A stretch of 64,000 nucleotides of DNA from an uncultured Alphaproteobacteria bacterium (GCA_944391725.1 CALXUQ010000002.1:3590-67589); one strand, 5' to 3'; positions 462-58,892 are shown, counted from the first letter of the stretch. Program-made: numbers and translations. The notes: a model not told the origin generated them from the letters alone.

Positions 462-785
462 GATTTTTCTCTTTTAATTAATTAGCTAACAATTTGCCTT
501 TATTTTTATTATTTTTATTTGGCTTTGGCAAGAAAAAAAGAAGAAAGATTTTTTGCTTGCATTTAATTTTTTTAGGTTAAATCACTATTGTTACCTATTG
601 GGTGGGTGACGGCAAATAAGGTATGACCAAATAAAACGAGCTGTTTTTATCTATGGCAGTTTTGAACGCCCACCCATCTTGGATATAAATTTTAGTATAA
701 TGTATTGAAATAAATTAAATATTTGTAGAATTATAAGCAAAATATAGCAATATTAAATATAAAAATAAAAAAAATGAAAAAAGTT

Positions 786-814
786 CTTGATTATTTATTT
801 TTGTGAGTGTATAA
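786..814 (+). promoter_or_regulatory. candidate sigma70-like promoter for tRNA-Val (TTGATT, 17 nt spacer, TATAAA)
   Basis: A -35-like and -10-like hexamer pair sits about 20 nt upstream of the mature tRNA 5' end in an AT-rich leader. Confidence 0.3.
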
Positions 815-833
815 AAGCCGATGTAAACGCGAT

Positions 834-909
834 GGGCGCTTAGCTCAGCTGGAAGAGCATCTCGTTTACACCGAGAGGGTCGGGAGTTCGAACCTCTCAG
901 CGCCCACCA
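834..909 (+). tRNA. tRNA-Val (anticodon TAC), CCA encoded
   Basis: The cloverleaf can be drawn by hand. The acceptor is GGGCGCT/AGCGCCC, the D-stem GCTC/GAGC, the anticodon stem TCTCG/CGAGA with loop TTTACAC, the T-arm GGGAG-TTCGAAC-CTCTC, with discriminator A and CCA. Confidence 0.9.
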
Positions 910-913
910 AAAA

Positions 914-941
914 GTCCACCTCAAATGGTGGATTTTTTTTG
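914..941 (+). terminator. rho-independent terminator after tRNA-Val
   Basis: A GTCCACC-tcaaat-GGTGGAT hairpin is followed by T8. Confidence 0.7.
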
Positions 942-954
942 TGCTTGGATTTGG

Positions 955-1186
955 CGAGATGAGGGGTTCGAACTCCCGAGGAAGGGAGTTTGACAACAAA
1001 CTTCGCTTTAGTGAAGTGCAGTTGGAAGGAAGACGTAGTCGACGATCCGAGCAAAGCGAGGACGCGCAGTGCATAGCGCGTGCGCACGACAAGCGAAAGG
1101 CGGACGAGAGTACGCCGGTGAGCCTTGGCTCATGAGCGTCAGTGCAACTCAAGCAGCGCGCAGAGTACACTCTCAGCGCCCACCAA
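955..1186 (+). repeat. tRNA-Val-associated composite repeat: inverted copy of the tRNA-Val T-arm, hairpin, ~100-nt unique segment, 75-nt conserved core, then a 16-nt direct copy of the tRNA-Val 3' end
   Basis: Positions 965-977 (GGTTCGAACTCCC) are the exact reverse complement of tRNA positions 882-894. Positions 984-994 (GGGAGTTTGAC) copy the T-arm 5' strand. Positions 1093-1167 are 95% identical to 58067-58141. Positions 1170-1185 (CTCTCAGCGCCCACCA) repeat the tRNA 3' end (894-909). Confidence 0.75.
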
Positions 1187-1220
1187 AAAGTCCACCTCAA
1201 AGGGTGGATTTTTTTTGTGC
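1187..1220 (+). terminator. second copy of the tRNA-Val terminator hairpin
   Basis: AAAAGTCCACCtcaaagGGTGGATTTTTTTT is a near-identical duplicate of 910-941. Confidence 0.6.
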
Positions 1221-1297
1221 TTGGATTTGGCGAGATGAGAGGTTTGAACTCCCAAGAGGTCGTAGGATTTATTGTGAAAGTTTGGAGTAAATGGGAA

Positions 1298-1545
1298 AAT
1301 TCGAAGATCCCTGGATGTTTTTCTGCGAAAAACGAGGGATGACTTTAAATAATGCTGGTGCAATCGAGAGATGGCCAGCACAGCTGGTGCGCGGCACGAC
1401 AAGTTAAAGGTTGAGAGTTTGTGACCAAGAGCAGAAATGCTACCGATGTGTCGATTGCTTAAATTAATTCGAAGATCCCAGGATGTTTTTCTGCGAAAAA
1501 CGAAGGATGACTTTAAATAATGCTGGCGCAATCGAGGGGTGACCC
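1298..1545 (+). repeat. 168-bp tandem duplication (unit 1 at 1298-1465; unit 2 at 1466-1545, truncated)
   Basis: AATTCGAAGATCCCtGGATGTTTTTCTGCGAAAAACGAgGGATGACTTTAAATAATGCTGGtGCAATCGAG occurs twice with 3 mismatches. Unit 1 continues into a diverged copy of the core (GCGCGGCACGACAAGTTAAAGGTTGAGAGTTTGTGACCAAGAGC). Confidence 0.7.
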
Positions 1546-21715: not shown

Positions 21716-21900
21716 GTTTGTCAAAGGTTAACAATGTTTTGTGGACTACAGATATTAAAGAAGTTAAATTACTTCTCAAAAGTTAACGATATTCTGCGGA
21801 GCTACTGGTATTAAAAGAGTTAATTAAATTGTCAAAAGATAATGAGGTTTTATGGGACGGCAGTTATTAAAGAAGTCAAAGTATAGTGGTGCGTTACAGA
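21716..21900. repeat. imperfect tandem repeats (three ~56-bp units plus degenerate partial copies up to ~22110)
   Basis: The units TCAAAAGTTAAC/GATAAT...TTTT(G/A)TGG(G/A)C...CAG(A/T)TATTAAAGAAGT(T/C)AAA start at ~21721, ~21777 and ~21833. GGTGTTTTATGGG and GGTGTTTTATCGG recur at 21914 and 22092. Confidence 0.6.
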
Positions 21901-38453: not shown

Positions 38454-38458
38454 TTCGT

Positions 38459-38492
38459 AAAAATCGTCTTAATTTGTTAAGGCGATTTTTTT
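38459..38492 (+). terminator. terminator hairpin after tRNA-Lys
   Basis: AATCGTCTTAAtttgTTAAGGCGATTTTTTT is a hairpin followed by a T-run. Confidence 0.6.
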
Positions 38493-38699
38493 ATATCCAT
38501 ATTAAGGGGTTCTCACCCTAAAGGGTTCTTCTGGCTCGTAAGTGTTTTTACAAACACTAACTCGCTGCGGTCACTTGGTTTGTAACATTCGTTTCGCGTC
38601 GCAGGCAGCGCCTGAGGCATCAGTTAGTTGCTTTACGTATATGCCTTGTATCCGCGATGCTTTCTATGTGCCGGTTGCTTGAATTAATTTGTAGCTTCC

Positions 38700-38760
38700 T
38701 TCACGATTGCTCCACAATCGTGTGATGACTTTAAATAAGACTAAAGCAATCGAGAACAGC
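38700..38760 (+). repeat. third copy of the GATGACTTTAAATAA...GCAATCGAGA motif, preceded by the hairpin CACGATTGctccaCAATCGTG
   Basis: GATGACTTTAAATAA (38723-38737) and GCAATCGAGA (38745-38754) are shared with 1338-1366 and 1506-1534. Confidence 0.6.
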
Positions 38761-38797
38761 AATTATTTAAACAATATGTGGAATAGGTTGCAAATTC

Positions 38798-40213
38798 CTA
38801 AAATTTCAAAAGCGGCAGTAAGAACGAAAAGCAACTCCCTCGCCCCGGAATGCTGGAAATTTCGATTTTGGTATCAATCACGGCGGCAATTTTGCTCACG
38901 ATGGTTAATCCCAGCCCTGCTCCTTGTTTACGGTTATCAATAATTTGCGGACTTTGGTAAAATTCTTCAAAAATCTTGTTTCTTTCTTGTTCCGAGATGC
39001 CAGGACCATTGTCTAAAATCATAATCCGGATATGGTCTTGCTCTCTTTTGCAACCCAAAACAATTTTGCTTTGGGTATACTTAAACGCATTGCTCAACAG
39101 ATTGCGAATGATACGCTCAATGAGTATGGGGTCGCTATAAACCTCTCCGTTATGCACCAAAGTATGAAATTTGATGTGTTTGCATGAGGCTAGCTCAGCA
39201 TATTCTTTAGCAATATTCCTGATTAAGCTACCAATGTTGAACTCTTGTGGCTCATATTTAATTCCGCCGGAATCTAATTTGGAAATATCCAGCAAGTTAT
39301 TGAGCAAATTGTTTAAATTATGCGCCGAGGCTTCAATTTTTTCTAAAATTTCTTGTTGTTTCTTGCTCAATCCTTCATCAAACATAGCGGCTATAAAGAT
39401 ATTTAGGGCCTGCATGGGTTGGCGCAAATCATGGCTGGCTTGAGCTAAAAAGTATGATTTATCGCGGTTGGCTTTCTCGGCCATAAATTTGGCTTTTTCA
39501 AGCGCTTGCTGAGTTAGGATAAATTTGCTGACATCTTGAAATGTGCCGGCAATCTTGCTTTGCGCGCCTTCTTGGATGACGGAGGCTTTGTAAACACAAT
39601 AAATTACCTGATTATCCGCGCGGCGTATTCTTAGTTGCCCCTCAACCGGGTGGCGATGTTTTATCAGCTCTTGGAGTTGAGCCCAATATTGTGGCAAGTC
39701 ATCGGGGTAGACATAATCCTTAAAAATATTGCGCTTATATCTCACTTCTTGCGGGTTTACGCCAAATATTTTATACATTTGTGCGGACCAATAAATCCGT
39801 TTATGGTGCCAATCAAATTCCCAATAGCCAAGCTGAGCAATGTTTTCGGCAAAGTTTAGCCGAGAGCTTAATTGTTTTAGCTCGGCGGAGAGTTCGGTCT
39901 TTTCGGTGATATCATGAAAACAGACGGCACAATGATTAGCGTGGGGATAAAAACTGGTTTGATACAGCCTATCGCGAACCATCAAATGGCTCATTTGCGG
40001 GGCTTGACGACGCATACTCTCTTGATATGTTTGGTAAAAATCGGAAAATTCGCCCTGAGGCAATTGAGCTCCTAAGTCGCCTTGAGGGGTGGCCACTTCT
40101 AAAATTTGCGCATTTTGGTTGGCAAGGCAAATCTTACCTTGTTTATCCATCATGACCAAAATATCGGTGGCGGCGTCGGCCAGTTGGCGGAAAGCAAATC
40201 CTTGGTTGTTCAT
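38798..40213 (-). CDS. sensor histidine kinase, cytoplasmic PAS-PAS-HisKA-HATPase type (no TM, no adjacent response regulator)
   Basis: It has the H-box ASHDLRQPMQALNIF, the N-box LLSNAFKYT, G1 DNGPGI and G2 GAGLGL. Two PAS-like regions are upstream. Confidence 0.8.
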   Translation of the reverse strand: MNNQGFAFRQLADAATDILVMMDKQGKICLANQNAQILEVATPQGDLGAQLPQGEFSDFYQTYQESMRRQAPQMSHLMVRDRLYQTSFYPHANHCAVCFHDITEKTELSAELKQLSSRLNFAENIAQLGYWEFDWHHKRIYWSAQMYKIFGVNPQEVRYKRNIFKDYVYPDDLPQYWAQLQELIKHRHPVEGQLRIRRADNQVIYCVYKASVIQEGAQSKIAGTFQDVSKFILTQQALEKAKFMAEKANRDKSYFLAQASHDLRQPMQALNIFIAAMFDEGLSKKQQEILEKIEASAHNLNNLLNNLLDISKLDSGGIKYEPQEFNIGSLIRNIAKEYAELASCKHIKFHTLVHNGEVYSDPILIERIIRNLLSNAFKYTQSKIVLGCKREQDHIRIMILDNGPGISEQERNKIFEEFYQSPQIIDNRKQGAGLGLTIVSKIAAVIDTKIEISSIPGRGSCFSFLLPLLKF

Positions 40214-57979: not shown

Positions 57980-57983
57980 TTAT

Positions 57984-58017
57984 AAAAAAGACGACCTTTA
58001 GGGTCGTTTTTTTTATA
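57984..58017 (+). terminator. terminator after tRNA-Ser (AAAAAAGACGACCtttaGGGTCGTTTTTTTT)
   Basis: A perfect hairpin is followed by T8. Confidence 0.7.
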
Positions 58018-58027
58018 ATTAGAGATA

Positions 58028-58152
58028 TGGATTGATTCGAACTCTGGGAGAAGAGTTCGACTACCAGCGAAAGGCGGACGAGAGTACGCCGGTGAGCTTT
58101 AAGCTCATGAGCGCCAGTGCAACTCAAGCAGCGCGCAGAGTAATCTCTGCCT
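58028..58152 (+). repeat. tRNA-Ser-associated composite repeat: inverted T-arm copy, hairpin, 75-nt core, then an 11-nt direct copy of the tRNA-Ser T-loop/acceptor strand
   Basis: Positions 58036-58049 (ATTCGAACTCTGGG) are the exact reverse complement of tRNA-Ser CCCAGAGTTCGAAT. Positions 58067-58141 are 95% identical to 1093-1167. Positions 58142-58152 (ATCTCTGCCTC) copy tRNA positions 57961-57971. Confidence 0.75.
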
Positions 58153-58175
58153 CAACTATAATGCAAATTGCTCAC

Positions 58176-58892
58176 TTATCTTAGGTGTTCTATGCCGGTC
58201 TTGACCACTTTGGCCGGATTGCCCGCAATTATGGTGTTTTCTTCTTTGAATTTTCTGCTCACTACACTTCCCATCGCAACGATTGTTTGATTGGGAATGG
58301 AAGCATTCTTGGTAAATTGACTGTTTTGGCAGATCCAACAGTTATCACCTATCATTACTTCGTATTTTTGATTGTTGATAATTTTATTGCTAGCTTTGTC
58401 TATAATTGTATGTCCATCAGCGGTCCAAATAGTGATGTTTTTGGAAAAAAGTGCCCGATTACCAATCCAACACGAGGTTTCATTTCTTATAACTAATTCT
58501 AATCCCCAAATACTTGCTTCTTCCCCTATATGACAATGTTGGTTTTGTCCGTCGCAACATTTAATTAATGTATTGCGAATTTTTCCGTTGCGACCAATAT
58601 CTATTTGGCAATTATTGCCGGTGCATTTTATGATTGAATTTTCAAATATACACGGAAATCCAATCTTGATGAGGTTGTTTGTTCCCCTTAAGATTATTTT
58701 TAGTCCTTTTATACGGCCAAATCGCAGCCTTTTTTCTCCTTTGGAGCTTACTAAAAAAATTTGGTTGTGAGAACCGCTAATAAGGTACATGCCGGGAATG
58801 AGTGAAGTTAAGTGTTTTAGTTTGTGTCGAAAATTGCGACGTTGTGCTTGGGGAATGAATATACTCAATAAATTGAAAATCAGTTTAAGCAT
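58176..58892 (-). CDS. hexapeptide-repeat (left-handed beta-helix) acyltransferase
   Basis: Imperfect hexad repeats run through the C-terminal half (IGDNCWICQNSQFTKNASIPNQTIVAMGSVV). The gene is AT-rich relative to flanking core genes. Confidence 0.6.
   Translation of the reverse strand: MLKLIFNLLSIFIPQAQRRNFRHKLKHLTSLIPGMYLISGSHNQIFLVSSKGEKRLRFGRIKGLKIILRGTNNLIKIGFPCIFENSIIKCTGNNCQIDIGRNGKIRNTLIKCCDGQNQHCHIGEEASIWGLELVIRNETSCWIGNRALFSKNITIWTADGHTIIDKASNKIINNQKYEVMIGDNCWICQNSQFTKNASIPNQTIVAMGSVVSRKFKEENTIIAGNPAKVVKTGIEHLR

What the first reader, a model, noticed from the sequence alone, without database searches (positions are those of the whole stretch)
1233..1545. 168-bp tandem duplication plus a dispersed GATGACTTTAAATAA...GCAATCGAGA motif that also occurs beside tRNA-Lys
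Unit 1 (1298-1465) and the truncated unit 2 (1466-1545) are near-identical. Unit 1 ends in a diverged version of the core (GCGCGGCACGACAAGTTAAAGGTTGAGAGTTTGTGACC...). The 35-nt motif GATGACTTTAAATAA(N7-8)GCAATCGAGA recurs a third time at 38723-38754, about 270 nt downstream of tRNA-Lys and next to the hairpin CACGATTGctccaCAATCGTG. A third hairpin of the GAGAGGTTTGAACTCCCAAGAGG type, a tRNA-Val T-arm look-alike, sits at 1237-1259. Together with the two core copies, this means all three solitary tRNA genes in the window are followed by members of one repeat family. That suggests tRNA-linked proliferation, or a shared trailer-processing or regulatory function.
Basis: seen in the sequence. Interest (0 to 1): 0.55.

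Follow-up and report, generated by a model that had tools for sequence, protein, structure and literature searches.

The report
tRNA-distal RtT-like repeats plus hairpin repeat
The flagged stretch is the decaying far end of a repeat array behind a tRNA gene, of the kind known from the E. coli tyrT operon (RtT), mixed with an unrelated small hairpin repeat whose copy number varies between strains; it is an unusual variant of a known but poorly understood thing, not a new system.

Summary
Two 79-nt copies lie 168 nt apart at 92% identity, the 15-mer GATGACTTTAAATAA occurs three times, and there is a T-arm look-alike.

The reading "one tRNA-linked family" merges two things.

(1) tRNA-Val and tRNA-Ser are followed by units with the architecture of the E. 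coli RtT/tyrT repeat. Each unit has an inverted T arm, then T-stem-5'+TTCGA, then a structured ~82-nt core placed where the T loop would be, then tRNA nt 59-76 (CCA). I found this family in 48 gut-metagenome contigs, and wherever the upstream sequence was held it lay behind Val, Ser, Met, Pro, Arg or Lys tRNA genes. It always carries cognate tRNA ends, and it is sometimes in tandem (x2-3). It falls below Rfam's RtT threshold. The look-alike at 1236-1256 starts a second such unit.

(2) The GATGAC...GCAATCGAG element ("U") is a separate, lineage-specific modular hairpin repeat. It also lies between flagellin and metG. In a related species it lies upstream of an EF-hand gene, 10 kb from the only tRNA gene found on that contig.

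The 168-bp unit is present in 2 of 8 strain sequences. One exchange between U copies relates the two alleles. No function is shown for U.

The parts
834..909 (+). tRNA-Val(TAC). Its 3' part (T arm to CCA) is the source of all tRNA-derived pieces downstream.
   Evidence: ARAGORN; Rfam tRNA 64.9 bits
909..938 (+). Intrinsic terminator of tRNA-Val. A terminator-like site was also called on the minus strand over the same hairpin.
   Evidence: Terminator scan
960..993 (+). Start of RtT-like unit 1. It holds the inverted T arm (960-979, the reverse complement of 880-899), a GAGGAA loop, and a direct GGGAGTTTGA (T-stem 5' strand + T-loop nt 54-58).
   Evidence: I1 (20 nt, 95% complementary); sequence; the same hairpin occurs in 19 related units
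993..1085 (+). 'X', a 93-nt insertion at the junction between the hairpin and the core. It is absent from the sister lineage. It shares CAAACTTCGCTT with a second ('type-2') kind of tRNA-distal unit.
   Evidence: Alignment A6; L091 unit
1086..1169 (+). RtT-like structured core (CGACAAGCGAAAGG...GTGCAACTCAAGC...GCGCAGAGTA)
   Evidence: 91% identical to 58060-58148; R2 88.1 bits; R1 95.3 bits over 1042-1187
1170..1256 (+). Second copy of the tRNA-Val 3' end (1170-1185, CTCTCAGCGCCCACCA), plus its terminator (1185-1214), plus the inverted T arm (1236-1256, the 'T-arm look-alike' of the finding). This is the end of unit 1 and the start of a truncated unit 2.
   Evidence: D1 and I2
1257..1297 (+). 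'Y' spacer, conserved in all strains and in the sister lineage
   Evidence: Alignments A1 and A6
1298..1376 (+). U1, copy 1 of the GATGAC hairpin repeat. It has the hairpin GTTTTTC-tgc-GAAAAAC, then GAGGGATGACTTTAAATAA, N7, GCAATCGAG.
1377..1465 (+). 'D', a single-copy spacer. Its 5' part is a decayed copy of an X/core junction. Its 3' part (about 1437-1465) is the 5' block of the U unit (ATGCTnnCnATGTGnCGATTGCTTAAATT).
   Evidence: 1 of 1000 shuffles; homology with 38657 onward
1466..1545 (+). U2, copy 2 of the GATGAC repeat. It ends in AGGGGTGAC, 10 nt before a bidirectional terminator (1557-1585).
   Evidence: D2 and I7
38657..38754 (+). U3, the GATGAC repeat copy in the tRNA-Lys trailer. 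It has a different inner hairpin (CACGATTG / CAATCGTG) at the same position.
   Evidence: fold z-score -2.9
58015..58162 (+). RtT-like unit behind tRNA-Ser(TGA). It reads TCGAACTCT-GGGAGA-AGAGTTCGA | core | ATCTCTGCCTC. The tRNA 3' copy is truncated to 11 nt.
   Evidence: R1 135.6 bits; R2 101.2 bits

Best explanation
Positions 1233-1545 are the distal, decaying end of an RtT-type repeat array behind tRNA-Val, interleaved with an unrelated hairpin repeat.

**The RtT-type unit (shown).** A unit reads, on the tRNA strand:
- an inverted copy of the tRNA's T arm (and more loosely its acceptor);
- a 4-6-nt loop;
- a direct T-stem-5' + TTCGA;
- a structured ~82-nt core;
- tRNA nt 59-76 (...CCA);
- a terminator.

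Removing the core rejoins a cognate T arm, exactly in the Ser, Pro and Met units. So the core sits at T-loop position 58/59 of a partial tRNA copy. The 'T-arm look-alike' at 1236-1256 is the first piece of a truncated second unit.

**The U element (shown).** The GATGAC...GCAATCGAG element ('U') is a separate, lineage-specific, modular hairpin repeat. It also occurs away from tRNA genes.

**The 168-bp 'duplication' (shown).** It is U1-D-U2, where D holds a decayed RtT-junction fragment. It is present in 2 of 8 strain sequences. The short allele is a U1/U2 hybrid.

**Inferred.**
- One homologous exchange between U copies, either unequal crossing-over or ectopic conversion, interconverts the two alleles.
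- The repeated tRNA 3' ends and U copies make tRNA trailers recombination-prone 'graveyards'. This is why U is found there.
- RtT-like units are transcribed by read-through and trimmed at their CCA ends, as E. coli rtT RNA is.
- U itself has no demonstrated function.
For: **Architecture and cognate tRNA ends.**
- Searches show the architecture. 48 of the 49 metagenome loci that matched carry the unit (the 49th is a chance match). Wherever enough upstream sequence is held, with one exception (L126), an intact tRNA gene (Val, Ser x3, Met, Pro, Arg x2, Lys) lies 126-145 nt upstream. The rejoined flanks equal the tRNA 3' end.
- Tandem copies x2-3 occur in L118, L127 and L143.

**Structure of the unit.**
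- 94% of cells are paired. The covariation score is 0.364 against 0.152 in shuffles (0 of 500 reach it) and at most 0.06 when partners are slid.
- G-U pairs fall on the tRNA-sense strand.

**RtT relationship.**
- RF00391 aligns unit-to-unit at 19.2 bits.
- My model, built without E. coli sequences, hits all four tyrT RtT units at E about 1e-7.
- The E. coli locus has the same parts in the same order.

**U is distinct and not tRNA-bound.**

**Polymorphism and the hybrid allele.**

**Sister lineage.** It has a canonical unit and only a minimal U module.

**D fragment.**
Against: - The core alone does not match the E. coli RtT core significantly (R2 10.1 bits, E 0.41). The cross-hit of the full model leans on tRNA-derived segments. 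The RtT relationship therefore rests mainly on identical architecture and similar core termini (CTnC.AGCG... / ...GCGCnGAGTA).
- The window copies are below Rfam's gathering score.
- Each unit is preceded by a strong intrinsic terminator, which argues against efficient co-transcription.
- Two of the three U loci in about 70 kb are tRNA trailers. Some real affinity of U for tRNA trailers is therefore not excluded.
- The direction of the 168-bp change cannot be polarised.
- There are no expression data.
Confidence: 0.62

Rival explanations
1. U is a non-autonomous transposable element (MITE-like). Its full form has GTCAYCCCTCRA...TYGAGGGRTGAC termini, and the tRNA-trailer copies are partial insertions. 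The 168-bp unit would then be a fresh insertion rather than a recombination product.
For: - The flagellin-metG copy is bounded by inverted GTCACCCCTCGA / TTGAGGGATGAC modules.
- The same left and right arrangement is seen in L120.
- Copies are dispersed and lie in the same orientation relative to convergent gene ends.
- The units form long imperfect hairpins (fold z-scores -2 to -3).
Against: - No target-site duplication is seen.
- The Val and Lys copies lack the left arm.
- Module order and number differ in every copy. That fits recombination among short repeats better than cut-and-paste.
- No transposase is linked. The only IS seen (IS110 family, L097/L098) has unrelated ends.
- There are few copies: 3 loci in about 70 kb.
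Confidence: 0.2
2. The whole region, RtT-like units included, is a set of relics or miniature derivatives of integrase-mobilised elements. These would integrate at the tRNA 3' end, with attB = nt 59-76. The direct copies of the tRNA end would be attL/attR, and arrays would arise by repeated integration.
For: - In L137 a 6.5-kb island with a tyrosine integrase sits between tRNA-Ser and an RtT-like unit. It is bounded by the very same 18 nt, ATCCCTATCTCTCCGCCA.
- In several loci the unit carries its own terminator that differs from the locus terminator (L103, L109, L119).
- Nearly identical units sit behind two different tRNA-Ser genes, each with a cognate 3' copy.
Against: - No integrase lies in or next to the window arrays.
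- The units are only about 180 nt.
- The conserved core with covariation and G-U strand bias points to a folded single strand, not to att arms.
- The island in L137 carries no core.
- Viral contig scans were empty.
Confidence: 0.12
3. One reading: U and the core are one family with a shared tRNA-trailer processing or regulatory role.
For: - Two of the three tRNA trailers carry U, and two carry the core.
- D links a core fragment to U physically.
- AGGGATGAC resembles a T-stem-5'/TTCGA/C junction (AGGGTTCGAC). This is my inspection only.
Against: - The model does not find U.
- U copies occur away from tRNAs.
- The sister lineage keeps the RtT-like unit but has only a 45-nt minimal U and lacks the 15-mer.
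- 6 of 8 strains lack the second U.
Confidence: 0.06

Closest known systems
RtT RNA / the 178-bp distal repeats of the E. coli tyrT operon (Rfam RF00391; gene rttR)
   Same: - Both lie directly behind a tRNA gene on the same strand.
- Units of about 130-180 nt are often in tandem (E. coli: 1 + 3 units; here x1-3).
- Each unit has an inverted tRNA 3' part, then T-stem-5'+TTCGA, then a core, then tRNA nt 59-76 with CCA. E. coli reads GGGGAAGGATGAGAAGCTT-CGACC-AAGGTTCGA | CTCGAGCG...GCGCTGAGTA | ATCCTTCCCCCACCACCA.
- The core termini are similar.
- Cross-detection works in both directions.
- RtT members are reported beside other tRNA operons and in Pasteurellaceae (PMC4986893). The function is still called unknown (bioRxiv 10.1101/2024.07.17.603846).
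   Different: - The core is longer (75-90 nt here, about 68 nt in E. coli) and has a different interior, including an invariant GTGCAACTCAAGC hairpin.
- The core alone is not significantly similar.
- The window copies are below the Rfam threshold.
- Most of these units are preceded by an intrinsic terminator, which the E. coli repeats lack.
- The hosts are uncultured gut bacteria. The closest named MetRS homologue of the window organism is 76% identical and labelled Alphaproteobacteria.
Modular intergenic hairpin repeats (REP/BIME, pneumococcal BOX, MITEs); comparison from my own knowledge
   Same: U is short, built from shuffled modules, forms hairpins, sits at convergent gene ends, and varies in copy number between strains.
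   Different: - No REP-type conserved palindrome is present. The inner stem differs in sequence between copies.
- No target-site duplication is seen.
- No RAYT or transposase is seen.
- There are very few copies.
att-site relics and cis-mobilisable elements at tRNA 3' ends; comparison from my own knowledge
   Same: The tRNA 3' end is repeated directly. The repeat has the same extent (nt 59-76) as that used by a real integrase-bearing island in L137.
   Different: No recombinase is present. The size is tiny. The conserved structured core is inserted at T-loop position 58/59, next to an inverted T arm.

Membership tests
RtT (RF00391), tested on the tRNA-linked units 1042-1187 and 58015-58162 | Lies immediately distal to a tRNA gene, on the same strand | tested here: met
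RtT (RF00391), tested on the tRNA-linked units | The unit ends in a copy of the upstream tRNA's last 18-19 nt including CCA | tested here: met
   Val: 1170-1185 is identical to 894-909. Ser: only 11 nt and no CCA. The full 18 nt is present in nearly all related loci.
RtT (RF00391), tested on the tRNA-linked units | Inverted tRNA 3' part plus direct T-stem-5'/TTCGA hairpin ahead of the core, as in the tyrT repeats | tested here: met
   E. coli comparison
RtT (RF00391), tested on the tRNA-linked units | Scores at or above the Rfam gathering threshold (45 bits) | tested here: not met
   No RtT hit in the window. The related unit in L127 reaches 19.2 bits. The core-only model against E. coli gives 10.1 bits.
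RtT (RF00391), tested on the tRNA-linked units | Tandem repetition of the unit | tested here: inconclusive
   The window has one full unit plus the first 87 nt of a second. True x2-3 arrays occur in L118, L127 and L143.
RtT (RF00391), tested on the tRNA-linked units | Released as a discrete RNA from the tRNA primary transcript | not testable with these tools
   There are no expression data. Terminators precede each unit.
RtT-like family, tested on the finding's own GATGAC/U element | Matches the family model, or ends in the upstream tRNA's 3' end | tested here: not met
   At most 2.4 bits with filters off. No tRNA 3' copy follows U1, U2 or U3.
MITE, tested on U | Terminal inverted repeats | tested here: inconclusive
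   GTCAYCCCTCRA arms are present in the flagellin-metG copy and in L120. They are absent from the Val and Lys copies.
MITE, tested on U | Target-site duplication | tested here: not met
   None at any copy. The sister-lineage comparison shows module replacement, not a bounded insertion.
Integrase att relic / cis-mobilisable element | Recombinase gene in or beside the element, or arm-type sites | tested here: not met
   No ORF longer than 161 aa lies in 910-1600, and none was tested for recombinase similarity. A tyrosine integrase is present only in the unrelated island of L137.

The most novel reading that the evidence does not exclude
RtT-type units are not passive duplications. They would be a widespread class of tRNA-gene-specific elements in gut bacteria: a conserved folded core that inserts, or is copied, at T-loop position 58/59 or at the CCA end of whichever tRNA it lands behind. 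It would acquire cognate tRNA ends in the process. Its RNA would mimic an acceptor/T minihelix with a CCA tail, making it a possible substrate for RNase P, the CCA-adding enzyme or synthetases. The U modules (hairpin + AGGGATGAC, which resembles T-stem-5'/TTCGA/C) would be miniaturised relatives.
Probability: 0.15. Interest if true: 0.75.

Novelty: new variant of a known kind. Interest (0 to 1): 0.4.

Why it matters
The RtT repeats behind E. coli tyrT were sequenced decades ago, by my recollection in 1978. Their RNA was described in 1991 (Bosl and Kersten, cited in PMC3318445), and a 2024 preprint still calls its mode of action unknown.

This work adds comparative material that the enterobacterial copies could not give:
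- The same architecture exists, with a different core, behind at least nine tRNA species in uncultured gut bacteria.
- The core sits exactly at T-loop position 58/59 of a partial, cognate tRNA copy.
- The tRNA-sense strand is the one that folds.
- Copy number changes between strains.

These points make concrete tests possible, such as whether the units mimic a minihelix and whether they are mobile or arise by recombination.

For annotation, three practical points follow:
- Rfam's RtT model misses this branch.
- Spurious ORFs are called across these arrays (for example a 161-aa ORF at 715-1200).
- The arrays can seed chimeric joins, as in L125.

The GATGAC element that prompted the finding is, on present evidence, an ordinary lineage-specific repeat.

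Tried and rejected
- **Rfam.** A gathering-threshold scan of the window and E-value scans of 800-1650 and 57980-58180 gave nothing but tRNAs and noise.
- **U motif in public collections.** An exact scan of 185,579 species genomes and of viral contigs gave 0 hits. The source lineage is therefore not among the representatives.
- **Synteny through MetRS in genome contigs.** The best hit was 70% identical, in Clostridia MAGs, and was not informative. Relatives at 81% and 91% have different neighbours and no U.
- **Phage and plasmid similarity.** There was no plasmid hit. The one 'phage' hit (MT837473.1, UNVERIFIED) contains a tRNA-Met with the same unit. The core scan of viral contigs was empty.
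- **IS110 bridge-RNA idea.** The left end of the IS in L097 resembles the Lys trailer only at E 0.26, so I dropped this.
- **Small-peptide reading of U (MTLNNAGAIEG*).** The frame is broken in L120, where the spacing is 17 nt instead of 7, so I rejected it.
- **U as a degenerate RtT unit.** The model does not support it.
- **Core-only homology to E. coli RtT.** Not significant. I kept this as a caveat.
- **Polarising the 168-bp change.** D is about 20% diverged from the local junction, while X is absent from a 98%-identical sister lineage. D may therefore come from another locus. Unresolved.

Full report

Yes. The region holds two 79-nt copies (1298-1376 and 1466-1544) at 92% identity, start-to-start 168 nt (D2; blastn E 1e-22). 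The 89 nt between them (1377-1465, 'D') occur once, so the arrangement is A-B-A rather than a plain duplication.

The 15-mer GATGACTTTAAATAA has three exact + strand hits (1338, 1506, 38724), against 0.39 expected even with two mismatches allowed. Each is followed by N7 and GCAATCGAG. Val-to-Lys homology runs over about 100 nt (1437-1536 against 38657-38754, 71%, E 3e-10).

The 'T-arm look-alike' at 1236-1253 is the reverse complement of the tRNA-Val T arm (I2). It is part of an 87-nt direct repeat (894-980 / 1170-1256, 95%) that also contains the last 16 nt of the tRNA and its terminator (D1).

**2. What follows the tRNAs**

Reading the three trailers side by side shows that tRNA-Val and tRNA-Ser are followed by the same parts in the same order:
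- a terminator;
- an inverted copy of the tRNA's own T arm;
- a short loop;
- a direct copy of T-stem-5' + TTCGA;
- a conserved core (1086-1173 against 58060-58148, 91%);
- the last two T-loop bases + T-stem-3' + acceptor-3' (+CCA in Val; truncated to 11 nt in Ser).

Deleting the core rejoins the tRNA's T arm. For Ser this is exact: AGAGTTCGA|ATCTCTGCCTC. The rejoined Val arm differs at three positions.

A 'distant' search of phage records hit one UNVERIFIED 6.8-kb record that carries a tRNA-Met followed by the same arrangement with Met-specific flanks.

A pattern from the three cores (GTGCAACTCAAGCNNNGCGCAGAG) found nothing in viral contigs. It found 49 metagenome loci, mostly human gut. One of them, L147, is a chance match. 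In the loci with enough upstream sequence, all but one (L126) have the core 126-145 nt behind an intact tRNA gene. The tRNAs are Val-tac, Ser-tga/gga/cga, Met-cat, Pro-ggg, Arg-tct/cct and Lys-ctt. The rejoined flanks equal that tRNA's 3' end. Three loci hold 2-3 tandem units of about 180 nt.

**3. Structure of the unit**

An alignment of 17 distinct units gives:
- a 9-bp hairpin made of the inverted and direct T-arm pieces;
- two hairpins with compensatory changes (GGCG/CGCC against GCGA/TCGC; several pair types in the second);
- an invariant GCGC...GCGC stem around GTGCAACTCAAGC.

94% of cells are paired. The covariation score is 0.364 against 0.152 in shuffles (0 of 500 reach it) and at most 0.06 when partners are slid.

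G-U pairs are frequent and lie on the tRNA-sense strand, where the opposite strand would have A-C. The sense strand, as RNA or single-stranded DNA, is therefore the folded form. In single-sequence folds the 5' inverted piece often pairs with the 3' tRNA copy. That gives a 10-12-bp helix with a free ACCA tail.

**4. What it is**

In E-value mode Rfam aligns a unit of L127 to RtT (RF00391) over the whole model and exactly unit-to-unit. The score is only 19.2 bits against a threshold of 45.

The E. coli K-12 tyrT-tyrV locus has four RtT units above 130 bits. It shows the same anatomy: GGGGAAGGATGAGAAGCTT - CGACC - AAGGTTCGA | CTCGAGCG...GCGCTGAGTA | ATCCTTCCCCCACCACCA. The annotated rttR RNA ends at a unit's CCA.

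A model built only from the gut sequences (R1) finds all four E. coli units at E about 1e-7. A core-only model (R2) reaches just 10.1 bits, E 0.41.

I therefore file these as a divergent variant with RtT architecture, not as demonstrated members of RF00391.

The literature describes rtT RNA as released from the tyrT transcript (Bosl and Kersten 1991, as cited in PMC3318445). PMC4986893 extends this to other tRNA operons and reports RtT members beside Asn- and Lys-tRNA genes in Pasteurellaceae. A 2024 preprint still calls the mode of action unknown (10.1101/2024.07.17.603846).

**5. The GATGAC element ('U') is something else**

R1 gives at most 2.4 bits anywhere in 1186-1600 or 38454-38800 with filters off.

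U has conserved blocks (alignment A4): AATTAATTYGnAGnTYCC, a hairpin whose sequence differs between copies, RGRATGACTYTA, a variable stretch, and GCAATYGAGRRRTGRC.

A fourth locus lies between the 3' ends of flagellin and metG, just outside the window. No tRNA lies in that interval. Three 'hairpin + AGGGATGAC' modules lie there, preceded by inverted GTCACCCCT modules.

A homologue (E 1e-9 to 1e-12) lies in a related species upstream of an EF-hand protein gene. It is about 10 kb from the only tRNA on that contig and sits inside an array of about nine RTGACAG sites.

A peptide reading (MTLNNAGAIEG*) is not preserved there.

U folds as a long imperfect hairpin with z-scores of only -2 to -3.

**6. 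Strain comparison**

Contigs that carry the identical neighbouring DUF2934 gene show the 168-bp unit in the window and in L001 only. Six others have one U. That copy carries U1's first SNP and U2's remaining SNPs, so it is a hybrid. A single exchange between the copies relates the two alleles.

A sister lineage (MetRS 98% identical) has:
- a canonical unit (GGGAGTTTGACTACCAGCG...), so the 93 nt at 993-1085 are an insertion;
- the same second tRNA-end + terminator + inverted-arm copy;
- the same Y spacer;
- only a minimal U (CCCATGA-CGATTGCtaacGCAATCG-AGGGATGAC) without the 15-mer.

D aligns to the local junction upstream of the core (1 of 1000 shuffles reaches the score). It is about 20% diverged, so it may have come from another locus. 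The direction of the 168-bp change is therefore open.

The Lys and Ser loci show the same kind of A-B-A variation between strains:
- a 124-nt extra unit at the Lys locus in L093, L096 and L102;
- a 215-nt 'type-2' unit ending in CCTCTCCGCCA at the Ser locus in L091;
- a copy of the tRNA-Lys 3' end in L097.

**7. How it most likely works**

Shown: anatomy, covariation, cognate tRNA ends, tandem arrays, and strain polymorphism.

Inferred, from the E. coli precedent: unit RNAs arise by read-through and are trimmed at their tRNA-like CCA ends. The terminator before each unit argues that this is inefficient here.

Inferred, from the A-B-A patterns and the hybrid allele: direct repeats of the tRNA end and of U drive unequal or ectopic recombination. 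tRNA trailers therefore expand, contract and accumulate fragments, and this is why U is found there.

How a core comes to sit behind a new tRNA is unresolved. Three observations bear on it:
- Near-identical units (2 differences in about 125 nt) sit behind tRNA-Ser-cga and tRNA-Ser-gga. They have different downstream terminators and cognate nt 59-76.
- L125 is a Ser/Pro chimera.
- L137 has an integrase island that uses the same 18-nt repeat.

These keep integration, ectopic conversion and insertion with target duplication all open.

**8. Verdict**

The tRNA-linked component is a new variant of a known kind (RtT). The GATGAC element is an uncharacterised, probably ordinary, lineage-specific repeat.

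Noticed in passing
L097:4727-5902 (also L098): In two strains a 1.17-kb IS110-family IS (309-aa DEDD transposase, 219-nt non-coding left end) is inserted inside the terminator after a tRNA-Lys 3' fragment, at GGGGGTC^TTTTTTT. A TT may be duplicated.
   Followed up: partly
L091:3878-4092; window 993-1085 and 38503-38601; L097:5940-6092: A second ('type-2') kind of tRNA-distal unit exists. It also ends in a copy of the tRNA 3' end (CCTCTCCGCCA in L091; CCCCCATGCGCCTACCA in L097). It shares CAAACTTCGCTT with the Val 'X' insertion and CTAAnCTCnCTGCGGT with the Lys trailer. It is present or absent between strains.
   Followed up: partly
window 38454-38495 against L093/L096:4840-4882: The terminator hairpin after tRNA-Lys is replaced by a different hairpin sequence in otherwise near-identical strains (a cassette-like swap).
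   Followed up: no
L126 (oriented 2830-2975): The same core sits in the T loop of a tRNA-Lys-like sequence. That sequence keeps the anticodon arm (TTGACTCTTAATCAG) but lacks the D arm, the inverted arm and CCA. It looks like a core inserted in a tRNA pseudogene.
   Followed up: no
L125:5674-5848: A chimeric unit has Ser-type hairpin and terminator on the 5' side and Pro-type tRNA end and terminator on the 3' side. Either recombination occurred through the shared core or this is an assembly chimera.
   Followed up: no
L137:3371-10165: A 6.5-kb island (tyrosine integrase, two resolvases, an OMP) is integrated in tRNA-Ser-cga upstream of an RtT-like unit. Its att repeat is the same 18 nt (tRNA nt 59-76) that ends the unit.
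   Followed up: partly
L120 (reverse strand), about 100-690 of the oriented locus; L141:1-300: A dense array of about nine RTGACAG sites, including three 24-nt tandem repeats (GGCCGGAATGACAGATAAAAAAACA), lies upstream of an EF-hand secreted-protein gene. The U homologue is embedded in it.
   Followed up: no
L103 = MT837473.1: This GenBank record, labelled 'UNVERIFIED: Bacteriophage sp.', carries a tRNA-Met followed by an RtT-like unit, the same arrangement as in the bacterial metagenome contigs. I did not check the rest of the record for viral genes.
   Followed up: partly
window 598-680: An inverted repeat, GGGTGGGTGAC...GCCCACCCA, lies in the metG / tRNA-Val divergent intergenic region (a possible metG leader structure). 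There is no Rfam hit.
   Followed up: no
window 21721-21842: A 56-nt tandem repeat, 2.2 copies, 77% matches (TRF).
   Followed up: no
window 715-1200 (-), 1139-1531 (-), 1291-1407 (+); L001:9493-9948: Long ORFs run across the repeat array. One of them was called as a 151-aa gene in the metagenome annotations. They are probably spurious, like the 'protamine-like' tpr ORF inside E. coli RtT.
   Followed up: no
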